Part shown: piece by piece, positions 19,538-57,629 of the stretch | How the letters are laid out: the number at the start of each line of letters is the position of its first letter | Position numbering within the stretch: the stretch's first letter is position 1 | IMG/VR virus record: IMGVR_UViG_2974729448_000001 | Location: 3,318-67,317 of that record | From: a virus | Taxonomy: Duplodnaviria; Heunggongvirae; Uroviricota; Caudoviricetes; Crassvirales | DNA length: 64,000 nt | Reading direction: 5' to 3' (one strand) | The notes under the pieces: generated by a model | The model's database searches: none | The model's input: only the letters and a program-made list of their open reading frames with translations | Told to the model about the DNA's origin: nothing | Made by a program: the position numbers and the translations under genes

Positions 19538-19612
19538 CTGGGATGATAGGACTTGAACCTACTATCACCTGATTAACAGTCAGGGGCTGTATACCACTTA
19601 AGCTTCATCCCA
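19538..19612 (-). tRNA. tRNA-Asn (anticodon GUU)
   Basis: Acceptor TGGGATG/CATCCCA, anticodon stem CCTGA/TCAGG with loop CTGTTAA, T-arm GTAGG-TTCAAGT-CCTAT. Confidence 0.6.
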
Positions 19613-20304: not shown

Positions 20305-20309
20305 ATAAG

Positions 20310-20383
20310 TTGCAGGGAGTGGATTTGAACCACTGTTCTCCTGTGAATGTGCACAGGTGAGATAACCACTTCTCCACCCTACG
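20310..20383 (-). tRNA. unusual tRNA with CAU-containing non-canonical anticodon loop (initiator-like features; possible pseudogene)
   Basis: Acceptor CGTAGGG/CCCTGCA with a C1.A72 mismatch. D-stem GAGA/TCTC (A11:U24). Anticodon region CCTGTG-CACATT-CACAGG folds as a 6-bp stem with 6-nt loop, or a 5-bp stem with 8-nt loop GCACATTC, never 5+7. T-arm AGTGG-TTCAAAT-CCACT. Confidence 0.45.
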
Positions 20384-20954: not shown

Positions 20955-21353
20955 CTAATCTTGATATACTCCACCTAATTTATTAGCATTTCTTTCAGTA
21001 AAGAAAGAATAATAGTTCCATTCAAAGTTGAATAGTCTTGCTATTCTTATAGCTATATTATGTAATACTGAAGGTATACCTATTAATATAAGATAAAACC
21101 ATCCAAGATACATAGATTGAACAGAGTGTCCATATTCATGTTTAATAGAAAATTCACCAGCATTTGTATTTAGGAATATATAATCCCCAAGAGAAAATGA
21201 TGAAGGAATAATCTTACTATATATTAAATACTTCTCATTATATTTACCAGCATAGTATGACCAATATCCAAGTAGATTACATAGCATAAATGCTAAGAAG
21301 TTCTGTGGAAATTGCCATATCCAAAGCAAAGTTCTAATTAAAAATTTCTTCAT
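20955..21353 (-). CDS. hypothetical membrane protein
   Basis: 132-aa ORF with several hydrophobic segments. Confidence 0.4.
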   Translation of the reverse strand: MKKFLIRTLLWIWQFPQNFLAFMLCNLLGYWSYYAGKYNEKYLIYSKIIPSSFSLGDYIFLNTNAGEFSIKHEYGHSVQSMYLGWFYLILIGIPSVLHNIAIRIARLFNFEWNYYSFFTERNANKLGGVYQD

Positions 21354-21793
21354 GTTAATTCCTTTGTTTTCTTATATCCTTCAATTAGCCCTTCTATATA
21401 TGAAGGGTCTGAAGTCCTCTCATTATCTATTCTTAAGATATTTATATTGGGATAAGCTCTTTTTATAGCTATCTCTCTGTTTAAATCAGCTTCAGTTTGA
21501 GAAGCTTCTTTGTGATATTCTCCATCCACTTCTATTATAAGTTTTATATCAGGAAGATAGAAATCTGCAATGTAGAACTTTTGTATATTACCTACCAAAT
21601 CTCTAATATAAATTATTTTTTGAAATTCATACTTTATAAAGTTTCTATCCAGAAAACTTCTAAAGTTCTTTTCAGCACTTGTACATTTAGATATTAAATC
21701 TTTTCTAAATGCTTTTGCTCTATTCATTATAATAGAATTAAGTTCTTTGCTATAACCACCTCTTTCAAGAGAGTTCATTGTTTTATGTTTCAT
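21350..21793 (-). CDS. DUF559/Vsr-like endonuclease-fold protein
   Basis: 147-aa ORF with YIADFYLPDIKLIIEVDGEYH, matching the DUF559 / very-short-patch-repair-type PD-(D/E)xK signature (vDf.lp..kl.IEvDG..H). Confidence 0.45.
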   Translation of the reverse strand: MKHKTMNSLERGGYSKELNSIIMNRAKAFRKDLISKCTSAEKNFRSFLDRNFIKYEFQKIIYIRDLVGNIQKFYIADFYLPDIKLIIEVDGEYHKEASQTEADLNREIAIKRAYPNINILRIDNERTSDPSYIEGLIEGYKKTKELT

Positions 21794-26106: not shown

Positions 26107-26163
26107 TATTGATATAAAGTGATTATTTAGAAGTAGCTATGTTGTGAAACATGGCTACATTCT

Positions 26164-26235
26164 GCCCTCATAGTTCAGTGGATAGAACAAGAGTTTCCTA
26201 AACTTTAGACAGAGGTTCGAGTCCTCTTGGGGGTA
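26164..26235 (+). tRNA. tRNA-Arg (anticodon CCU)
   Basis: Acceptor GCCCTCA/TGGGGGT (two G.U pairs), D-stem GTTC/GAAC, anticodon stem AGAGT/ACTTT with loop TTCCTAA, T-arm AGAGG-TTCGAGT-CCTCT. Confidence 0.6.
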
Positions 26236-26243
26236 CTAAATAA

Positions 26244-26330
26244 GAATACATAGCTTAATGGTAAAGCTTGGTGTGATAAACTGTAACTCATGTCTAACAG
26301 TGATATAGGTTCAAATCCTGTTGTATTCTT
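26244..26330 (+). ncRNA. tRNA-like element without a canonical anticodon arm
   Basis: Perfect acceptor GAATACA/TGTATTC, D-arm GCTT-AATGGTA-AAGC, T-arm ATAGG-TTCAAAT-CCTGT. The 36 nt between D- and T-arms contain no 5-bp stem + 7-nt loop; an exhaustive hand search was done. The only helix is ACTGT-(12 nt)-ACAGT. Confidence 0.4.
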
Positions 26331-26339
26331 ATTTATTTT

Positions 26340-26643
26340 GGGGCATGATTTGGTTTTGATTGCTGATTATTTGGTAAGAGAACATGCAGAGACTGATGGA
26401 GAGACATCAAAACAATAACTGACAACACTTATAGAGTTGCTGCCTAAATTAGGCTAAGCAGCACTTGCTTTGAAACAGAAAGGTGCAAACAAAGGATTTC
26501 TTGCATAGATTAATGCAAGTGGTGGATTGTGTTGATTTCTGGTCAACCCCAGTGGATAACTAACCACATCAAAAATAGTAAGCATGTGTAATTCTTTTAT
26601 TAAAGATTGGTAAGACAAGGGTTCGAGTCCCTTATGCTCCACC
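26340..26643 (+). ncRNA. ssrA: tmRNA (SsrA)
   Basis: 5' end GGGGCATGATTTGG resembles E. coli GGGGCUGAUUCUGG. 3' end GGTTCGAGTCCCTTATGCTCCACC has a T-arm plus acceptor pairing with the 5' end, including the G3.U70 wobble. Internal tag-like frame ...D-N-T-Y-R-V-A-A-TAA (26421..26447). The 64-aa minus-strand ORF 26454..26648 overlaps and is discounted. Confidence 0.75.
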
Positions 26644-28903: not shown

Positions 28904-30325
28904 ATGTGTTCTAAATTAAATCCGTCATTAAAACCATCATTAAAATTAGATGATGTTAGATTGGCTGGTGGTTCTGGTGCTAAAGCAGCTAAACAATCAG
29001 AAATAGAATTGCTAAGAAGAGTAGTTTTAGCCAATCTACTTTGGGAAGATGTTGCCTATATAGATGGCAAGAGTGTAGCTGATGAAATCAAAAGACTAAT
29101 TCCTCTATGTAAAGGTAAGGATGTAGCTAATCTTGCTCTTGAAGCAAGAATCAATCAGAAGCTCAGACATACTCCACTATTTATAGCAGTAGAGATGTGC
29201 AGATATCCAGAGCATAAGACATATGTAAAGGAATTACTTCCTATGATTATTACAAGAGCTGACATGTTGACAGACTTCTTGGCATTATATTGGAAGGATG
29301 GAAAGAAGCCTATCTGTAATCAAGCTAAGAAAGGATTGGCAGCAGCTTTTCATAATTTCAATGAATACAAGTTTGCTAAATATGACAGGGATGCAGCCAT
29401 TAAGTTAAGAGATGTCATGTTCTTATGTAGACCTAAGCCAAATAATGAACAGGAAGCTGAACTATTCAAAAAGATAGCTGACAGGACTCTTACCCCACCT
29501 GAAACTTGGGAAGTATTACTTTCTGCTGGTAAAGATAAGAAAGAGACTTGGCAATACCTTATTAATAATGGAAAGATTGGAGGTCTTGCAATGCTGAGGA
29601 ATATTAGTAATATGATGAAAGCTAATGTAGACAAGGAAATCATAAGATATGGTCTTAGAAGTTTAAAGTCCTCAATGCTTTTACCTCTTGATTTCTTTAA
29701 ATCTGCAAGAATGGCTACTGAATTTAAGAGAGATATTGAAGATGCAATGATTGAATCATATAAATCTCTTCCTAAATTGAAAGGAAATACCTTATTCATT
29801 GTAGATGTATCAGGTTCCATGCTTTCTAATTTATCAGGTAAATCATCATTTTCAAGACTGGATGCTGCCTGTGCAATGGCTATGTTGGCTATTAACCAGT
29901 GTGAGAGATATGAACTTGTAACTACAGCAGGAGATGATTATAGAAGAATTCAATCATCTGAACATATTAAATATCCTGAGAGAGGATTTGGAGTGTTCAA
30001 TCAAATAAAACAGTCAATGGGTAAGATTGGTAGTGGAGGTATCTTTACTAAACAATGTCTTGACTGGTGTAGGAAGAAGTTTGGAGGAGTCAAGTTTGAT
30101 AGAATAATCATATTCTCAGATTCACAAGATATTGATTATCACTATGATAAGACTATACTTCCTGAGCCTTTTGGTAAATGTAATTACATCTGTGATGTTT
30201 CAGCAGAACTTAGAGGTGTGAATTATAAAGGCAGATGGACAGCAGAAATTGGTGGTTTTTCAGAGCATTTCCTTACTTATATTGCAGCTTTAGAAGGATT
30301 GCAGAATAAGTTTGAGGAACAATAA
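28904..30325 (+). CDS. rsr: Ro60/Rsr orthologue (TROVE domain + vWA domain)
   Basis: 473-aa ORF. PLFIAVEMCRYPEHK, MLRNISNMMKANV and the MIDAS region LFIVDVSGSM...AACAMAMLAI align by eye with Ro60 (as I recall it: PMLFALAI..., LLRNLGKMTANSV, LLAVDVSASM...AAAMCMVV). N-terminal ~300 aa are helical-repeat-like, C-terminal ~170 aa vWA. Confidence 0.75.
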   Translation: MCSKLNPSLKPSLKLDDVRLAGGSGAKAAKQSEIELLRRVVLANLLWEDVAYIDGKSVADEIKRLIPLCKGKDVANLALEARINQKLRHTPLFIAVEMCRYPEHKTYVKELLPMIITRADMLTDFLALYWKDGKKPICNQAKKGLAAAFHNFNEYKFAKYDRDAAIKLRDVMFLCRPKPNNEQEAELFKKIADRTLTPPETWEVLLSAGKDKKETWQYLINNGKIGGLAMLRNISNMMKANVDKEIIRYGLRSLKSSMLLPLDFFKSARMATEFKRDIEDAMIESYKSLPKLKGNTLFIVDVSGSMLSNLSGKSSFSRLDAACAMAMLAINQCERYELVTTAGDDYRRIQSSEHIKYPERGFGVFNQIKQSMGKIGSGGIFTKQCLDWCRKKFGGVKFDRIIIFSDSQDIDYHYDKTILPEPFGKCNYICDVSAELRGVNYKGRWTAEIGGFSEHFLTYIAALEGLQNKFEEQ

Positions 30326-30512
30326 TATAATGTCATTAGTGTATTACAGATTTACATCAATAATCTTTTAAATTATCCAGATAACTATAATCTGTTAAAT
30401 GTTCTATGGCATTTTTCTTATAAAGACATCATTAGTGTAGCACAGAGTTACTTCATAAATAGTCATAAGCAAAACTCACTCTTTGCACTATTCTATGATG
30501 TCTTTTTTCTTT

Positions 30513-30654
30513 GGAGGGATAGCTCAGTTGGTAGAGCAGCAGTATAAATGAAAATTACACTTTAGTCATGGTTCCACAGCAGTGTTGGTGTAGATTAGAG
30601 TTACTTCAAAGCCTTGTAAGCTGCGGGTCATTGGTTCAAGTCCAATTCCCTCCA
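30513..30654 (+). ncRNA. tRNA-like RNA with ~76-nt insertion replacing the anticodon loop; candidate Y RNA (YrlA-like) partner of Ro60
   Basis: GGAGGGA-TA-GCTC-AGTTGGTA-GAGC-A-GCAGT[76-nt insert]GCTGC-GGGTC-ATTGG-TTCAAGT-CCAAT-TCCCTCC-A. Canonical acceptor, D-arm, T-arm and anticodon-stem-like pairing, with no anticodon loop. Lies 188 nt downstream of the Ro60 gene. Confidence 0.5.
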
Positions 30655-30847
30655 CAAAAGATTAGTGATTATAACACTTACTTCAACAATAATTTAACAG
30701 AAAAAAAAAATTGGTATTTTTTCAATATATAATTTAAAAATTAGTGTTATAGCATGTCCTATCTTAAGGCTGTCAGTGTTTCTGGCAGCCTTTTTTATTG
30801 TAAGTTTTTCTTATAAATATATTATTAACATCTAAAAAAAAAAAATC

Positions 30848-55173: not shown

Positions 55174-55654
55174 AGTTAGGTATGAAGGGAAAAGTGGTGA
55201 CTATTTTACTAAAGGAGAAGAGTATACTATAAGTGATATAAAGGACTATGAGATTATTTTAGAGGATAATGGCACTAAAAACCCTATTCATAGTTGGAGT
55301 TATCCAGTGTTTTTTGACAATTTCTGTTTATTAAATTCTCTTGAAGAAGAGCAGGTAAAAGAGAACTCAAGTACTATACCTGCTAAAAGGTTTAAGAGAA
55401 TTACTGGAGAAATGCTTAGGACTTTCATCAAAAAGAATCAGGACTATGGTGACTCCTTCTTCATATCATGTAATGAAGAAGGATTGGCTGCATCAAGGAT
55501 TAGAATTGGTGATAAGTGGCTAAGATTCAAGAAACTATCCAAAGGAGGTGAAGCTATGGTTAAAGATGAGTCTATCAGAGACACACTCTTAGATATGGCT
55601 AATTATGCCATTATGACAGTAATGTGGATGGATAATCAAAAGAAGGGAGTATGA
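55148..55654 (+). CDS. hypothetical protein
   Basis: 168-aa ORF. Confidence 0.4.
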   Translation: MTMLKVGSKVRYEGKSGDYFTKGEEYTISDIKDYEIILEDNGTKNPIHSWSYPVFFDNFCLLNSLEEEQVKENSSTIPAKRFKRITGEMLRTFIKKNQDYGDSFFISCNEEGLAASRIRIGDKWLRFKKLSKGGEAMVKDESIRDTLLDMANYAIMTVMWMDNQKKGV

Positions 55655-56058
55655 TTATAGCAGTGGATTTTGATGGAACTTGTGTTACACATGAGTTTCC
55701 ATATGTAGGAAAAGAAATAGGAGCAGCAGAAGTCTTAAAAGAGTTAACTGATAAAGGTCATAAGATTATACTGTTTACTATGAGGAGCCATCCTGAGGAG
55801 ATAAATCAAAAAGGTATTGCCTATTCTGATGCTCTACAGGATGCAATAGACTGGTTTAAGAAATATGATATCCCTTTATTTGGTGTAAATGAAAATCCAA
55901 CTCAAAAAGGCTGGACTTCATCACCTAAACCTTATGCCCATATCTATATTGATGATGCAGCTTTAGGAGTTCCCTTGAAGAAGGATTCTCTTTCTGAGAG
56001 ACCTTATGTTGATTGGGGTATAGTTAAATATTATCTTCATGTAAAGAATATATTATGA
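55651..56058 (+). CDS. HAD-superfamily phosphatase-like protein (possible nucleotidase)
   Basis: 135-aa ORF beginning MIIAVDFDGTCV (HAD motif I DxDGT). Confidence 0.4.
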   Translation: MIIAVDFDGTCVTHEFPYVGKEIGAAEVLKELTDKGHKIILFTMRSHPEEINQKGIAYSDALQDAIDWFKKYDIPLFGVNENPTQKGWTSSPKPYAHIYIDDAALGVPLKKDSLSERPYVDWGIVKYYLHVKNIL

Positions 56059-56643: not shown

Positions 56644-57187
56644 AATGAATAAGAAACTTAGGTTATTAGTAACAACTAAATGTCCTAATAAATGTCCCAT
56701 GTGTTGCAATAACTCATGGGATTTTTCATCTTTACCAGTAGTGGATAGATGGGACTATGAAGAGATAATGATAACTGGAGGAGAGCCTTTAATTCATACT
56801 AATAAAGTAACTGAATTAATAAGGTCTATTCGAGTTATCAGTGAAGTTTATACAGATATTCCAAAGGTATATGTGTACACTTCAATAGCTGCTTGGGATA
56901 GAGTAAGAACTATATTAGCTTATGCAGATGGTATAGTTTTGACTCCACATAGTCAGAATGATATTGATAGGTTTGTGGAACTGAACAATATGATGCAAGA
57001 GCTTAAAGGAACTAAACTTGATTTTGCTAAAGGTAAATCACTTAGACTTAATCTCTTTGCTGATATGAAACTTCTCCTTCCTGAGCACATTGATTTGTCA
57101 CTATGGAATATCAAAGAAATGGAGTGGGTAAAAGATTGTCCAGTACCACAGGGTGAAGATTTCAGAAGGATTAAGGAACTTTGGTAA
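56621..57187 (+). CDS. radical SAM protein (small, QueE/NrdG-like size)
   Basis: 188-aa ORF. LLVTTKCPNKCPMCCNN = CxxxCxxC cluster motif. IMITGGEPL glycine-rich SAM motif. Confidence 0.55.
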   Translation: MYHLMKSKMNKKLRLLVTTKCPNKCPMCCNNSWDFSSLPVVDRWDYEEIMITGGEPLIHTNKVTELIRSIRVISEVYTDIPKVYVYTSIAAWDRVRTILAYADGIVLTPHSQNDIDRFVELNNMMQELKGTKLDFAKGKSLRLNLFADMKLLLPEHIDLSLWNIKEMEWVKDCPVPQGEDFRRIKELW

Positions 57188-57629
57188 CATGAGGCAATTT
57201 ACACACAAGGAATTTGTTAAGATAGTTATAGCTAATGGTTTCTGTTATGACAGACATAATGGAGACCATGCTATCTATCTTAATAATAAAGGAAGGCATA
57301 TCAGTATTCCAGATAAACTTGCATGTGTTATTGCAGCTCGGCTAATAAAGGAAAATAATTTAGAGACAAATATTAAAAAACTTAAAAAAGAAAAGAGAAT
57401 GAGTAATTTACCAGCAGGAGCAAAGTATGATAGTAGAGCTCCTTTCAATGAACCTCTTAATGTAGAGTATAAAAGATTTGTCAGTGCAAGTATCTCATAC
57501 TATGATACAGTGGAATTGCCTACTGGAGCCAATGAAGAGCAGATTAATGAAGCCTTTAAAGAGAAAGTAAGTAATGGGCAGTTTCCCAAGGAATTTGATA
57601 TTGATGAAGTAATAATATTGGAGGAATAA
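57153..57629 (+). CDS. hypothetical protein
   Basis: 158-aa ORF. Confidence 0.35.
   Translation: MKISEGLRNFGNMRQFTHKEFVKIVIANGFCYDRHNGDHAIYLNNKGRHISIPDKLACVIAARLIKENNLETNIKKLKKEKRMSNLPAGAKYDSRAPFNEPLNVEYKRFVSASISYYDTVELPTGANEEQINEAFKEKVSNGQFPKEFDIDEVIILEE

What the first reader, a model, noticed from the sequence alone, without database searches (positions are those of the whole stretch)
26340..26643. Phage-encoded tmRNA (SsrA) with tag reading frame ending ...YRVAA
The 5' end GGGGCATGATTTGG and the 3' end GGTTCGAGTCCCTTATGCTCCACC form an acceptor stem with the G3.U70 wobble that defines alanine identity, and both closely resemble E. coli tmRNA termini. An internal frame reads ...T-D-N-T-Y-R-V-A-A-stop (TAA at 26445), which follows the pattern of ANDENYALAA-type degradation tags. 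tmRNA genes are uncommon in phages. Together with an Ro60/Y RNA module and a 13-gene tRNA complement, this points to heavy investment in translation and RNA quality control.
Basis: partly seen in the sequence, partly recalled or inferred. Interest (0 to 1): 0.7.

Follow-up and report, generated by a model that had tools for sequence, protein, structure and literature searches.

The report
tmRNA gene in a crAss-like phage
This is a genuine but compact ribosome-rescue RNA (tmRNA) gene in a crAss-like gut phage; the public record for that phage already annotates it, so it is a confirmed, fairly ordinary example of a known though uncommon phage feature.

Summary
Confirmed. ARAGORN and Rfam both call a tmRNA at window 26340-26643 (+). 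Rfam RF00023 scores 74.3 bits against a threshold of 47, E = 5e-27. The tag is DNTYRVAA, with the stop codon at 26445-26447.

The window is 100% identical to GenBank MT774378.1 (uncultured crAss-like phage cr106_1, Steigviridae), and that record already annotates this feature as "transfer-messenger RNA, SsrA".

I found 58 homologues in viral metagenome contigs. Across 49 unique sequences:
- The acceptor stem, including G3:U, never varies.
- The T-stem covaries.
- 92.7% of proposed pairs hold, against 37-51% in shifted controls.
- The tag frame is always preserved.

The gene is short: 304 nt against about 395 nt in Bacteroides hosts, whose tag is GETNYALAA. It has a plain hairpin where pseudoknot 1 normally sits. 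I found no SmpB in the window, so the RNA must use host SmpB, AlaRS and EF-Tu.

It is an old, diverged phage lineage, not a recent capture from the host and not an integration remnant. It is also dispensable: three relatives carry broken copies, including the cultured phage tikkala.

Some relatives carry a group I intron in the T-loop, and GenBank does not annotate it. The Ro60/Y-RNA module is real but is distributed independently of the tmRNA.

The parts
26340..26643 (+). tmRNA (ssrA) gene, one-piece standard form, 304 nt including the discriminator A and CC
   Evidence: ARAGORN. Rfam RF00023 at 74.3 bits, E = 5e-27. Annotated as tmRNA in MT774378.1 at 29657-29960.
26340..26346 (+). Acceptor stem 5' strand GGGGCAU. 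G3 forms the G3:U wobble, which is the alanine identity element.
   Evidence: All 7 pairs never vary in 49 unique homologues, including G:U at pair 3.
26634..26643 (+). Acceptor stem 3' strand AUGCUCC (26634-26640), discriminator A (26641) and CC (26642-26643). The next base is T, so the CCA end must be completed after transcription.
   Evidence: Sequence and pair counts. Relatives have A then CA at this point.
26617..26633 (+). T-arm: stem AAGGG/CCCUU with loop UUCGAGU
   Evidence: 100% paired in 49 sequences, and 4 of 5 pairs show compensatory changes: AAGGG/CCCTT, GAGGG/CCCTC, TTGGG/CCCAA, AGGGG/CCCCT, TCCAG/CTGGA.
26358..26387 (+). Helix 2, 5' strand. This long helix connects the tRNA-like domain to the rest of the RNA and ends in the conserved CAUGC.
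   Evidence: 26 pairs, 99-100% paired, with many GU<->AU changes. C48:G243 changes to U:A in 7 sequences. Rfam alignment.
26582..26615 (+). Helix 2, 3' strand (GCAUG ... AAGAC)
   Evidence: Same evidence as the 5' strand.
26394..26409 (+). Hairpin UGAUG-GAGAGA-CAUCA at the position of pseudoknot 1. I found no second stem.
   Evidence: 98% paired, with A57:U68 <-> U:A in 5 sequences. The 5' flank AGAGAC and the loop GAGAGA are both purine runs and cannot pair with each other.
26415..26420 (+). AUAACU, the frame-setting sequence just upstream of the resume codon. The AUAA tetramer lies 2 nt before the codon, the same spacing as E. coli AUAG-UC-GCA.
   Evidence: U77, A78, A79, U81 and G82 never vary. 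A preference for AUAG/AUAA is reported in PMC4236655.
26421..26447 (+). Tag reading frame GAC AAC ACU UAU AGA GUU GCU GCC UAA = DNTYRVAA*
   Evidence: ARAGORN. In homologues the frame length is only ever 27, 30 or 42 nt, a stop codon is always present and Tyr never varies.
26436..26462 (+). Helix 5, which holds the end of the tag frame with the stop codon in its loop
   Evidence: 10 pairs, 93.9% paired. Rfam alignment.
26463..26500 (+). Candidate pseudoknot 2: a hairpin whose loop GAAA pairs with the downstream UUUC
   Evidence: Stem cells 76-99% paired and loop-to-downstream stem 88.8% paired, but no compensatory changes. This is consistent with the pseudoknot and does not prove it. Relatives carry 15-145 extra nt inside this region.
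26501..26518 (+). Hairpin UUGCAU-AGAUUA-AUGCAA
   Evidence: 5 of 6 pairs show changes on both sides, but only 74-85% of cells are paired because the alignment is poor across length classes.
26531..26566 (+). Candidate 3' pseudoknot (GUUGA/UCAAC with loop CUGG pairing CCAG), followed by hairpin UGG/CCA (26553-26555 with 26564-26566)
   Evidence: Stem 1 has 4 of 5 pairs with compensatory changes. Stem 2 is 69.9% paired, with CUGG/CCAG changing to CUAG/CUAG in L020. The hairpin is 100% paired, with G:C <-> A:U in 10 sequences.
26164..26330 (+). Two tRNA genes on the same strand, directly upstream (tRNA-Arg CCU at 26164-26236, and an 88-nt tRNA with anticodon GAU at 26243-26330). The gap to the tmRNA is only 9 nt, so they probably share one precursor transcript.
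   Evidence: ARAGORN and Rfam. Co-transcription is inferred from the spacing. No promoter-like or terminator-like signal rose above background.

Best explanation
This is a functional one-piece tmRNA encoded by a virulent crAss-like phage of Bacteroides.

Proposed mechanism:
1. It is probably transcribed together with the two upstream tRNAs.
2. Host tRNA-processing enzymes trim it, and the CCA end is completed.
3. Host alanyl-tRNA synthetase charges it with alanine through the G3:U pair.
4. Host SmpB and EF-Tu deliver it to ribosomes stalled on broken or stop-less mRNAs.
5. Translation resumes at GAC, positioned by the upstream AUAA-CU sequence. The tag A-DNTYRVAA is added and translation ends at UAA.
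6. The ribosome is freed, and the tagged fragment is marked for host proteases through its C-terminal VAA.

The likely benefit is to keep ribosomes available during infection, when mRNA breakdown produces many stop-less messages. It is an accessory function, not an essential one.

What is shown: the gene, its conserved fold, its conserved tag frame, its phage location and the absence of SmpB in the window. What is inferred: expression, charging, use of host SmpB, and the benefit to the phage.
For: - Two independent detectors agree on the coordinates.
- The window is identical to a complete phage genome that already annotates the gene.
- There are 58 homologues in viral contigs, most of them 90-100 kb long.
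- On 49 unique sequences, 92.7% of cells are paired against 37-51% when partners are slid. 22 pairs have compensatory changes, a count reached by 0 of 500 shuffles. G3:U never varies, and the T-stem is 100% paired with 4 of 5 pairs covarying.
- Tag frame lengths are only 27, 30 or 42 nt, a stop codon is always present, Tyr never varies, and the other changes are conservative: R/K and V/A/M.
- The resume context AUAA-CU|G matches the known AUAG/AUAA preference.
- The tag resembles the host tag GETNYALAA, found in 96 of 105 Bacteroidota tmRNAs recovered with a pattern written for that tag, so that proportion is built into the search. The phage variant GNTSYRVAA shares G, T, Y, A and A at the same positions.
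- A hairpin in place of pseudoknot 1 is compatible with tagging in E. coli (PMC4236655).
- Intron-carrying alleles keep exons that rebuild a perfect T-arm and acceptor stem.
- No SmpB appears in 29 ORFs scanned against Pfam, nor in the record's annotation for 1-88 kb.
Against: - There are no expression, charging or tagging data.
- Three relatives carry broken copies: tikkala, L004 and L040. Tikkala is a cultured phage, so the gene is dispensable in the laboratory.
- Variable sites in the tag frame show no third-position excess (2/5/3 by codon position, small sample). Evidence for selection on the peptide therefore rests on frame and motif conservation only.
- Pseudoknot 1 is absent, and pseudoknots 2 and 4 are only partly supported.
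- The phage RNA is only 63-77% identical to the Bacteroidota tmRNAs compared (63-74% for Bacteroides) in its best-conserved ends. Compatibility with host SmpB is assumed, not shown.
Confidence: 0.8

Rival explanations
1. It is a decoy or competitor. The phage RNA binds host SmpB or stalled ribosomes to block or redirect host trans-translation, for example to blunt a rescue-dependent defence, and productive tagging is not its purpose.
For: A phage precedent exists. [quoted passage not shown] The phage encodes no SmpB of its own. The RNA is reduced in size and lacks pseudoknot 1.
Against: A pure decoy would not need a tag frame. Here the resume context, frame length, Tyr, C-terminal Ala-Ala and stop codon are conserved across 58 homologues.
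Confidence: 0.07
2. It is a working tmRNA whose altered tag (basic residue, ...Y-R/K-V-A-A) sends tagged proteins to a different fate than the host tag does. For example, it might escape a host adaptor or engage a phage protease.
For: Phage tags consistently carry R or K where the host tag has A (YRVAA against YALAA). The record annotates an aspartyl protease and a protein with a metalloprotease domain.
Against: The C-terminal hydrophobic-Ala-Ala end typical of degradation tags is kept. Nothing links the phage proteases to the tag. I ran no test.
Confidence: 0.08
3. It is a decaying, non-functional relic of an old capture from a host.
For: Broken copies exist in three relatives. The gene has lost about 90 nt and pseudoknot 1 relative to host tmRNAs.
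Against: 52 of the 59 loci examined (58 homologues plus the window) are intact, and 6 more are intact after splicing. There is compensatory covariation in several helices, and the identity elements never vary. Ten near-identical loci of the same short class come from different contigs.
Confidence: 0.04
4. It is an integration-site fragment (attP-type copy of the host ssrA 3' end), or a host ssrA gene beside a prophage.
For: tmRNA genes are common integration sites, and phages can carry ssrA fragments (PMC9004378, PMC11915505).
Against: The gene is full length, with its own 5' end and tag. It sits inside a complete 101.7-kb phage genome with no integrase in the annotation I inspected. The longest runs identical to the host 3' end are only about 9 nt.
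Confidence: 0.01

Closest known systems
Bacterial one-piece tmRNA (SsrA, Rfam RF00023), in particular Bacteroides ssrA
   Same: It has the tRNA-like domain with G3:U, the T-arm, long helix 2, a resume codon after a U-A-rich motif, a short tag ending in hydrophobic-Ala-Ala, and a stop codon in the helix 5 loop. The 18 nt before the resume codon are almost the same as in the host in one phage class: ATCAAAACTTTAACTGGC against ATCAAAACTTTATCTGGC.
   Different: It is 304 nt against about 395 nt. It has a hairpin in place of pseudoknot 1. The tag is DNTYRVAA against GETNYALAA. Identity in the conserved ends is only 63-77%, no closer to Bacteroides than to other Bacteroidota. It is encoded by a phage, with no adjacent or co-resident smpB.
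Other phage-encoded tmRNAs (huge phages, PMC7162821; Melnitz-type marine phages, PMC9004378)
   Same: It is a complete tmRNA carried by a lytic phage alongside tRNA genes. The proposed role is to maintain the hijacked translation apparatus.
   Different: Huge phages are reported to encode SmpB as well as tmRNAs, and this phage has none. Melnitz has a permuted two-piece form with a riboswitch, and this one is the standard one-piece form. I found no paper in the searchable library that discusses the crAss-like lineage.
Intron-form tmRNA genes (group I intron in the T-loop; PMC11915505)
   Same: Six relatives (cr128_1 and five IMG/VR contigs) have a group I intron after the second T-loop nucleotide, which is the paper's subsite 3. 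The paper reports that subsite only from the class Bacteroidia. The U.G pair at the 5' splice site, the terminal G and the P10 pairing are all present.
   Different: The window's own gene has no intron. The phage introns are about 870 nt long and carry an endonuclease ORF on the opposite strand. The homing endonuclease genes that paper detected were of the LAGLIDADG type, found by a search aimed at that type.
Mycobacteriophage DS6A tag-less tmRNA-like RNA
   Same: It is a phage-borne derivative of tmRNA.
   Different: DS6A's version lacks a tag frame and acts as an inhibitor. This gene keeps a conserved tag frame.

Membership tests
tmRNA (SsrA, Rfam RF00023) | Covariance-model score above the curated threshold | tested here: met
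   74.3 bits against a gathering score of 47, E = 5.1e-27, full-length match to model positions 1-374. ARAGORN also calls it.
tmRNA (SsrA, Rfam RF00023) | Acceptor stem formed by the 5' and 3' ends, with the G3:U70 alanine identity pair | tested here: met
   GGGGCAU/AUGCUCC. All 7 pairs, including G:U, never vary in 49 unique homologues.
tmRNA (SsrA, Rfam RF00023) | T-arm with a tRNA-type loop, and no anticodon arm | tested here: met
   AAGGG-UUCGAGU-CCCUU. 100% paired, with 4 of 5 pairs compensatory. Helix 2 takes the place of the anticodon arm.
tmRNA (SsrA, Rfam RF00023) | Internal tag reading frame with a defined resume codon and a stop codon, ending in a hydrophobic/Ala-Ala degron | tested here: met
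   GAC...UAA = DNTYRVAA*, preceded by AUAA-CU. The frame is preserved in all homologues.
tmRNA (SsrA, Rfam RF00023) | Typical complement of four pseudoknots (usual, but not universal) | tested here: inconclusive
   The pseudoknot 1 position holds a hairpin with no second stem. Two candidate pseudoknots have partial support (88.8% and 69.9% of cells paired, few compensatory changes). There is no room for a fourth at 304 nt.
tmRNA (SsrA, Rfam RF00023) | Works with SmpB | not testable with these tools
   No SmpB in 29 window ORFs scanned against Pfam, nor in the annotation of MT774378 for 1-88 kb. Use of host SmpB is inferred.
tmRNA (SsrA, Rfam RF00023) | Alanylation and trans-translation activity | not testable with these tools
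   This requires biochemistry or infected-cell proteomics.
Intron-form tmRNA gene | Group I intron interrupting the T-loop | tested here: not met
   The window gene is continuous. Met only in relatives L003, L013, L038, L043, L053 and L063.
ssrA-derived attachment-site fragment | Partial 3' fragment identical to host ssrA, plus an integrase | tested here: not met
   The gene is full length and only 66-74% identical to Bacteroides tmRNAs over the 3' 60 nt. There is no integrase in the annotation I inspected.
   TROVE is met (Pfam E = 1.5e-11, 28904-30325). The adjacent 143-nt element at 30513-30655 folds as a cloverleaf with an extended anticodon arm, but its energy z-score is only -1.4 and no Rfam family matches it. 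Its PhiCrAss001 homologue scores 46.6 bits on the tRNA model.

The most novel reading that the evidence does not exclude
The crAss-like tmRNA lineage may be a specialised phage version of ribosome rescue and not just a spare copy. On this reading, its minimal body (a hairpin for pseudoknot 1), its R/K-containing tag and its strictly parallel G/A variation in the two AGAGAC repeats flanking that hairpin reflect adaptation. The adaptation would let it outcompete or bypass host tmRNA during infection and give tagged proteins a phage-chosen fate. In addition, tRNA-like T-loops (in tRNAs, the tmRNA and Y-like RNAs) would act as recombination points that shuffle, delete and intron-seed a small RNA-quality-control island in these very abundant gut phages.
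Probability: 0.15. Interest if true: 0.55.

Novelty: already known. Interest (0 to 1): 0.3.

Why it matters
crAss-like phages are among the most abundant viruses in the human gut, and little is known about how they manage host translation. A conserved phage tmRNA that depends on host SmpB is a simple, testable handle on that question: does ribosome rescue limit phage yield in Bacteroides?

The practical value is mostly in annotation. The gene is correctly labelled in one GenBank record. In the cultured phage tikkala a broken copy is annotated as two hypothetical proteins. In cr128_1 an intron-split copy has no annotation. The finding adds no new kind of biology.

Tried and rejected
- I looked for a second stem that would make pseudoknot 1 canonical. 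There is none: the 5' flank and the loop are both purine runs, and no complementary UCUC-type sequence lies downstream.
- I wrote a simple pseudoknot finder for the 3' region. It was too permissive, building stems entirely from G.U pairs, so I discarded its output and read the variants by eye.
- I tested whether the phage tmRNA was recently captured from Bacteroides. It was not. Identity is 63-77% and no higher to Bacteroides than to other Bacteroidota, or to E. coli as I recalled its sequence from memory.
- I looked for the missing 3' end of tikkala's copy within 3 kb and did not find it. A weak 'CTTATGCCC' 102 nt downstream is best treated as chance. The real explanation is a fusion to the 3' end of a Y-like RNA.
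- I scanned for sigma-70-type promoters and intrinsic terminators around the gene and found nothing above the shuffled background. Bacteroides and crAss promoters are not covered by that scan.
- I looked for a codon-position signature of selection in the tag and found no third-position excess.
- Two of the 60 motif hits, L021 and L032, were chance matches inside coding sequence and were dropped.
- I did not inspect the last 13 kb of MT774378 (88-101.7 kb, outside the window).

Full report
**Observation.** GGGGCAT at the 5' end pairs with ATGCTCC at 26634-26640 to give a 7-bp acceptor stem with a G3:U wobble, followed by the discriminator A and CC. ARAGORN calls a tmRNA at exactly these coordinates, with tag DNTYRVAA* coded at 26421-26447. 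Rfam's tmRNA model RF00023 matches end to end at 74.3 bits (threshold 47), E = 5.1e-27.
- The resume codon is GAC, not the preceding in-frame ACU.
- The CCA end is only partly encoded.
- The pseudoknot set is reduced.

**Identity of the window.** The gene is 100% identical to positions 29657-29960 of GenBank MT774378.1 / NC_055871.1. That record is the complete 101,662-bp genome of uncultured crAss-like phage cr106_1 (Crassvirales, Steigviridae, Asinivirinae, Mahstovirus faecalis; human faeces). It already annotates the feature as 'transfer-messenger RNA, SsrA'. The record has portal, terminase, replication genes and an RNA polymerase subunit, and no integrase in the 88 kb I inspected. The phage context is therefore certain, and the existence of the gene is already public.

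**Family.** Only two other GenBank phages hold a relative:
- Kehishuvirus 'tikkala', cultured on Bacteroides cellulosilyticus.
- Uncultured phage cr128_1.

An exact 17-nt motif from helix 2 found 60 IMG/VR contigs, most of them 90-100 kb long. Of these, 58 are true homologues and two are chance hits in coding sequence. Mature lengths fall into classes of about 302, 307, 316, 335, 377-388 and 439-450 nt. The window belongs to the shortest class. The extra sequence in the longer classes lies between the second pseudoknot region and the following hairpin.

**Structure.** I aligned 49 unique mature sequences and counted pairs for a hand-built structure.
- 92.7% of cells are standard pairs, against 37-51% when the 3' partners are slid by 1-3 columns.
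- 22 pairs show changes on both sides, a count reached by 0 of 500 shuffles.
- The acceptor stem, including G3:U, never varies in all 49 sequences.
- The T-stem is 100% paired, and four of its five pairs covary.
- Helix 2 is 99-100% paired, with many GU/AU exchanges and one C:G to U:A swap.
- Helix 5 holds the stop codon in its loop.
- The pseudoknot 1 position holds only a 5-bp hairpin (with an A:U to U:A swap). I found no second stem, because the flank and the loop are both purine runs.
- Two candidate pseudoknots further 3' have partial support: 88.8% and 69.9% of cells paired, including a CUGG/CCAG to CUAG/CUAG change.

A hairpin in place of pseudoknot 1 supports normal tagging in E. coli (PMC4236655). 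The reduction therefore does not argue against function.

**Tag.** Across the family the tag frame is only ever 27, 30 or 42 nt long. A stop codon (TAA or TGA) is always present, and Tyr never varies. The other changes are conservative (D/G, R/K, V/A/M) or synonymous (AAC/AAT, GCT/GCA/GCC). The main variants are DNTYRVAA (24 loci), GNTSYRVAA (15) and GNTYRAAA (11). The resume codon is preceded by AUAA-CU, the same spacing as E. coli AUAG-UC and the known AUAG/AUAA preference. Variable sites show no third-position excess (2/5/3, small sample), so the case for translation rests on frame and motif conservation.

**Host comparison.** A degenerate pattern for GETNYALAA* hit at least 120 Bacteroidota genome contigs. 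ARAGORN recovered 105 tmRNAs from them, 96 with exactly that tag and most about 395 nt long. Because the search pattern was written for that tag, the proportion is built in. The phage tags share the G/T/Y/A/A skeleton and the length of the host tag, but they carry R or K where the host has A, and V where it has L. In the conserved ends the phage RNA is only 63-77% identical to the Bacteroidota tmRNAs compared (63-74% for Bacteroides), and Bacteroides is no closer than the others. E. coli, recalled from memory, is no further away. In one phage class, however, the 18 nt before the resume codon match the host at 17 of 18 positions. This is an old, diverged phage lineage, not a recent capture and not an attachment-site fragment.

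**Partners.** No SmpB match appears in 29 window ORFs scanned against Pfam, and none is annotated in the record. The RNA must therefore rely on host SmpB, AlaRS, EF-Tu, processing enzymes and the CCA-adding enzyme. This step is inferred.

**Mechanism and its standing.** The best explanation is a working trans-translation RNA that keeps ribosomes available during infection. I place it at about 0.8. Rivals:
- A decoy like the tag-less DS6A RNA (PMC11915505). The conserved tag frame argues against this.
- A working tmRNA whose altered tag changes the fate of tagged proteins. This is untested.
- A decaying relic. Covariation and 58 intact or spliceable copies out of the 59 loci examined argue against it.
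- An integration fragment. This is refuted.

The gene is accessory. Tikkala, L004 and L040 carry broken copies.

**Related loci.** In cr128_1 and five IMG/VR contigs the gene is split after the second T-loop nucleotide by a group I intron of about 870 nt.
- Rfam Intron_gpI scores 86 bits.
- P1 is GGGUU/GACCC with the U.G pair at the splice site, P10 is CGAA/UUCG, and the terminal G is present.
- The intron carries an endonuclease ORF on the opposite strand (PHROG E = 7e-20).
- Intron-less alleles with the same flanks exist.

This is subsite 3 of PMC11915505, which that paper reports only from Bacteroidia. GenBank does not annotate this tmRNA.

In tikkala the tmRNA body is fused at GGTTCGAGTCC to the 3' end of a tRNA-like Y-type RNA. 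In PhiCrAss001 that RNA follows the Ro60 gene. One T-loop-to-T-loop deletion therefore appears to have removed the tmRNA 3' end, the intervening ORFs, Ro60 and the Y-like RNAs. GenBank annotates the remnant as two hypothetical proteins.

**The Ro60 claim.** The TROVE protein at 28904-30325 is real. It is followed by a 143-nt tRNA-like element at 30513-30655. TROVE and the tmRNA occur independently among relatives, so they are neighbours here and not an obligate pair.

**Novelty.** Phage tmRNAs are known in about 2.3% of phage genomes (PMC9004378) and in huge phages (PMC7162821). This particular gene is already annotated. I found no paper that discusses tmRNAs of crAss-like phages. The family description, the intron alleles and the tikkala fusion are modest additions. 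The verdict is a confirmed, ordinary finding of low to moderate interest.

Noticed in passing
L003:3002-4318 (MT774392.1, cr128_1); also L013, L038, L043, L053, L063: The tmRNA homologue is split in the T-loop (GGGTT|...|CGAAT) by a group I intron of about 870 nt, with P1, P10 and the terminal G intact. The intron carries an HNH/endonuclease VII-type ORF on the opposite strand. Intron-less alleles with the same flanks exist. GenBank does not annotate this tmRNA. The site is the T-loop subsite 3 that PMC11915505 reports only from Bacteroidia.
   Followed up: yes
L002:3002-3294 (OQ198717.1, Kehishuvirus tikkala): The only cultured relative has a broken tmRNA, annotated as two hypothetical proteins. 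Its body is fused at GGTTCGAGTCC to the 3' end of a Y-like tRNA-like RNA, which in PhiCrAss001 follows the Ro60 gene. This implies a T-loop-to-T-loop deletion that also removed Ro60.
   Followed up: yes
window 30423-30504 and 30513-30655: Just after the TROVE/Ro60 gene lie a long stem-loop and a 143-nt tRNA-like RNA (acceptor, D and T arms, with about 80 nt inserted in the anticodon arm). Both look like YrlA-type Y RNAs. Neither is annotated, neither is called by ARAGORN, and neither reaches any Rfam threshold. The motif GAGTTACTTCA recurs in them.
   Followed up: partly
window 26243-26330: The tRNA directly upstream of the tmRNA is 88 nt long with anticodon GAU and a long extra arm. That is unusual for an isoleucine tRNA. 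Tikkala's counterpart is annotated as tRNA-His on the other strand.
   Followed up: no
window 19538-19612 and 20309-20383: The two tRNA detectors disagree here. Rfam alone calls a tRNA at 19538-19612. ARAGORN alone calls one at 20309-20383, with an undetermined two-base anticodon.
   Followed up: no
window 26389 and 26401 (gene positions 50 and 62): The two AGAGAC repeats flanking the hairpin at the pseudoknot 1 position vary strictly in parallel across 49 unique sequences: A/A in 39, G/G in 10, none mixed. They cannot pair with each other. This could reflect one clade or a shared contact.
   Followed up: partly
L040 (91-nt remnant) and L004: There are two further decayed copies. L040 lost everything between two TTGGTAAGA repeats, including the tag. 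L004 keeps a tag frame (GTSYRIAA*) but has lost the 3' half of the tRNA-like domain.
   Followed up: partly
alignment A1, columns about 160-360 (between window 26487 and 26495): Relatives carry 15-145 extra nucleotides here in at least four unrelated-looking versions, so this part of the RNA is a hotspot for insertion or replacement.
   Followed up: no
window 26133-26158: A 9-bp inverted repeat (GTAGCTATG ... CATGGCTAC) lies 5 nt upstream of tRNA-Arg, at the start of the tRNA-tRNA-tmRNA cluster. It might be a processing or regulatory hairpin.
   Followed up: no
window 57153-57629, 55651-56058 and 21350-21793: Other RNA- or nuclease-related genes in the window: a HicA-toxin-like mRNase (Pfam E = 7e-6, just below threshold), an annotated polynucleotide kinase/phosphatase, and a DUF559/PvuRts1I-like endonuclease. 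An mRNA-cutting enzyme would create the stop-less messages that tmRNA rescues.
   Followed up: no
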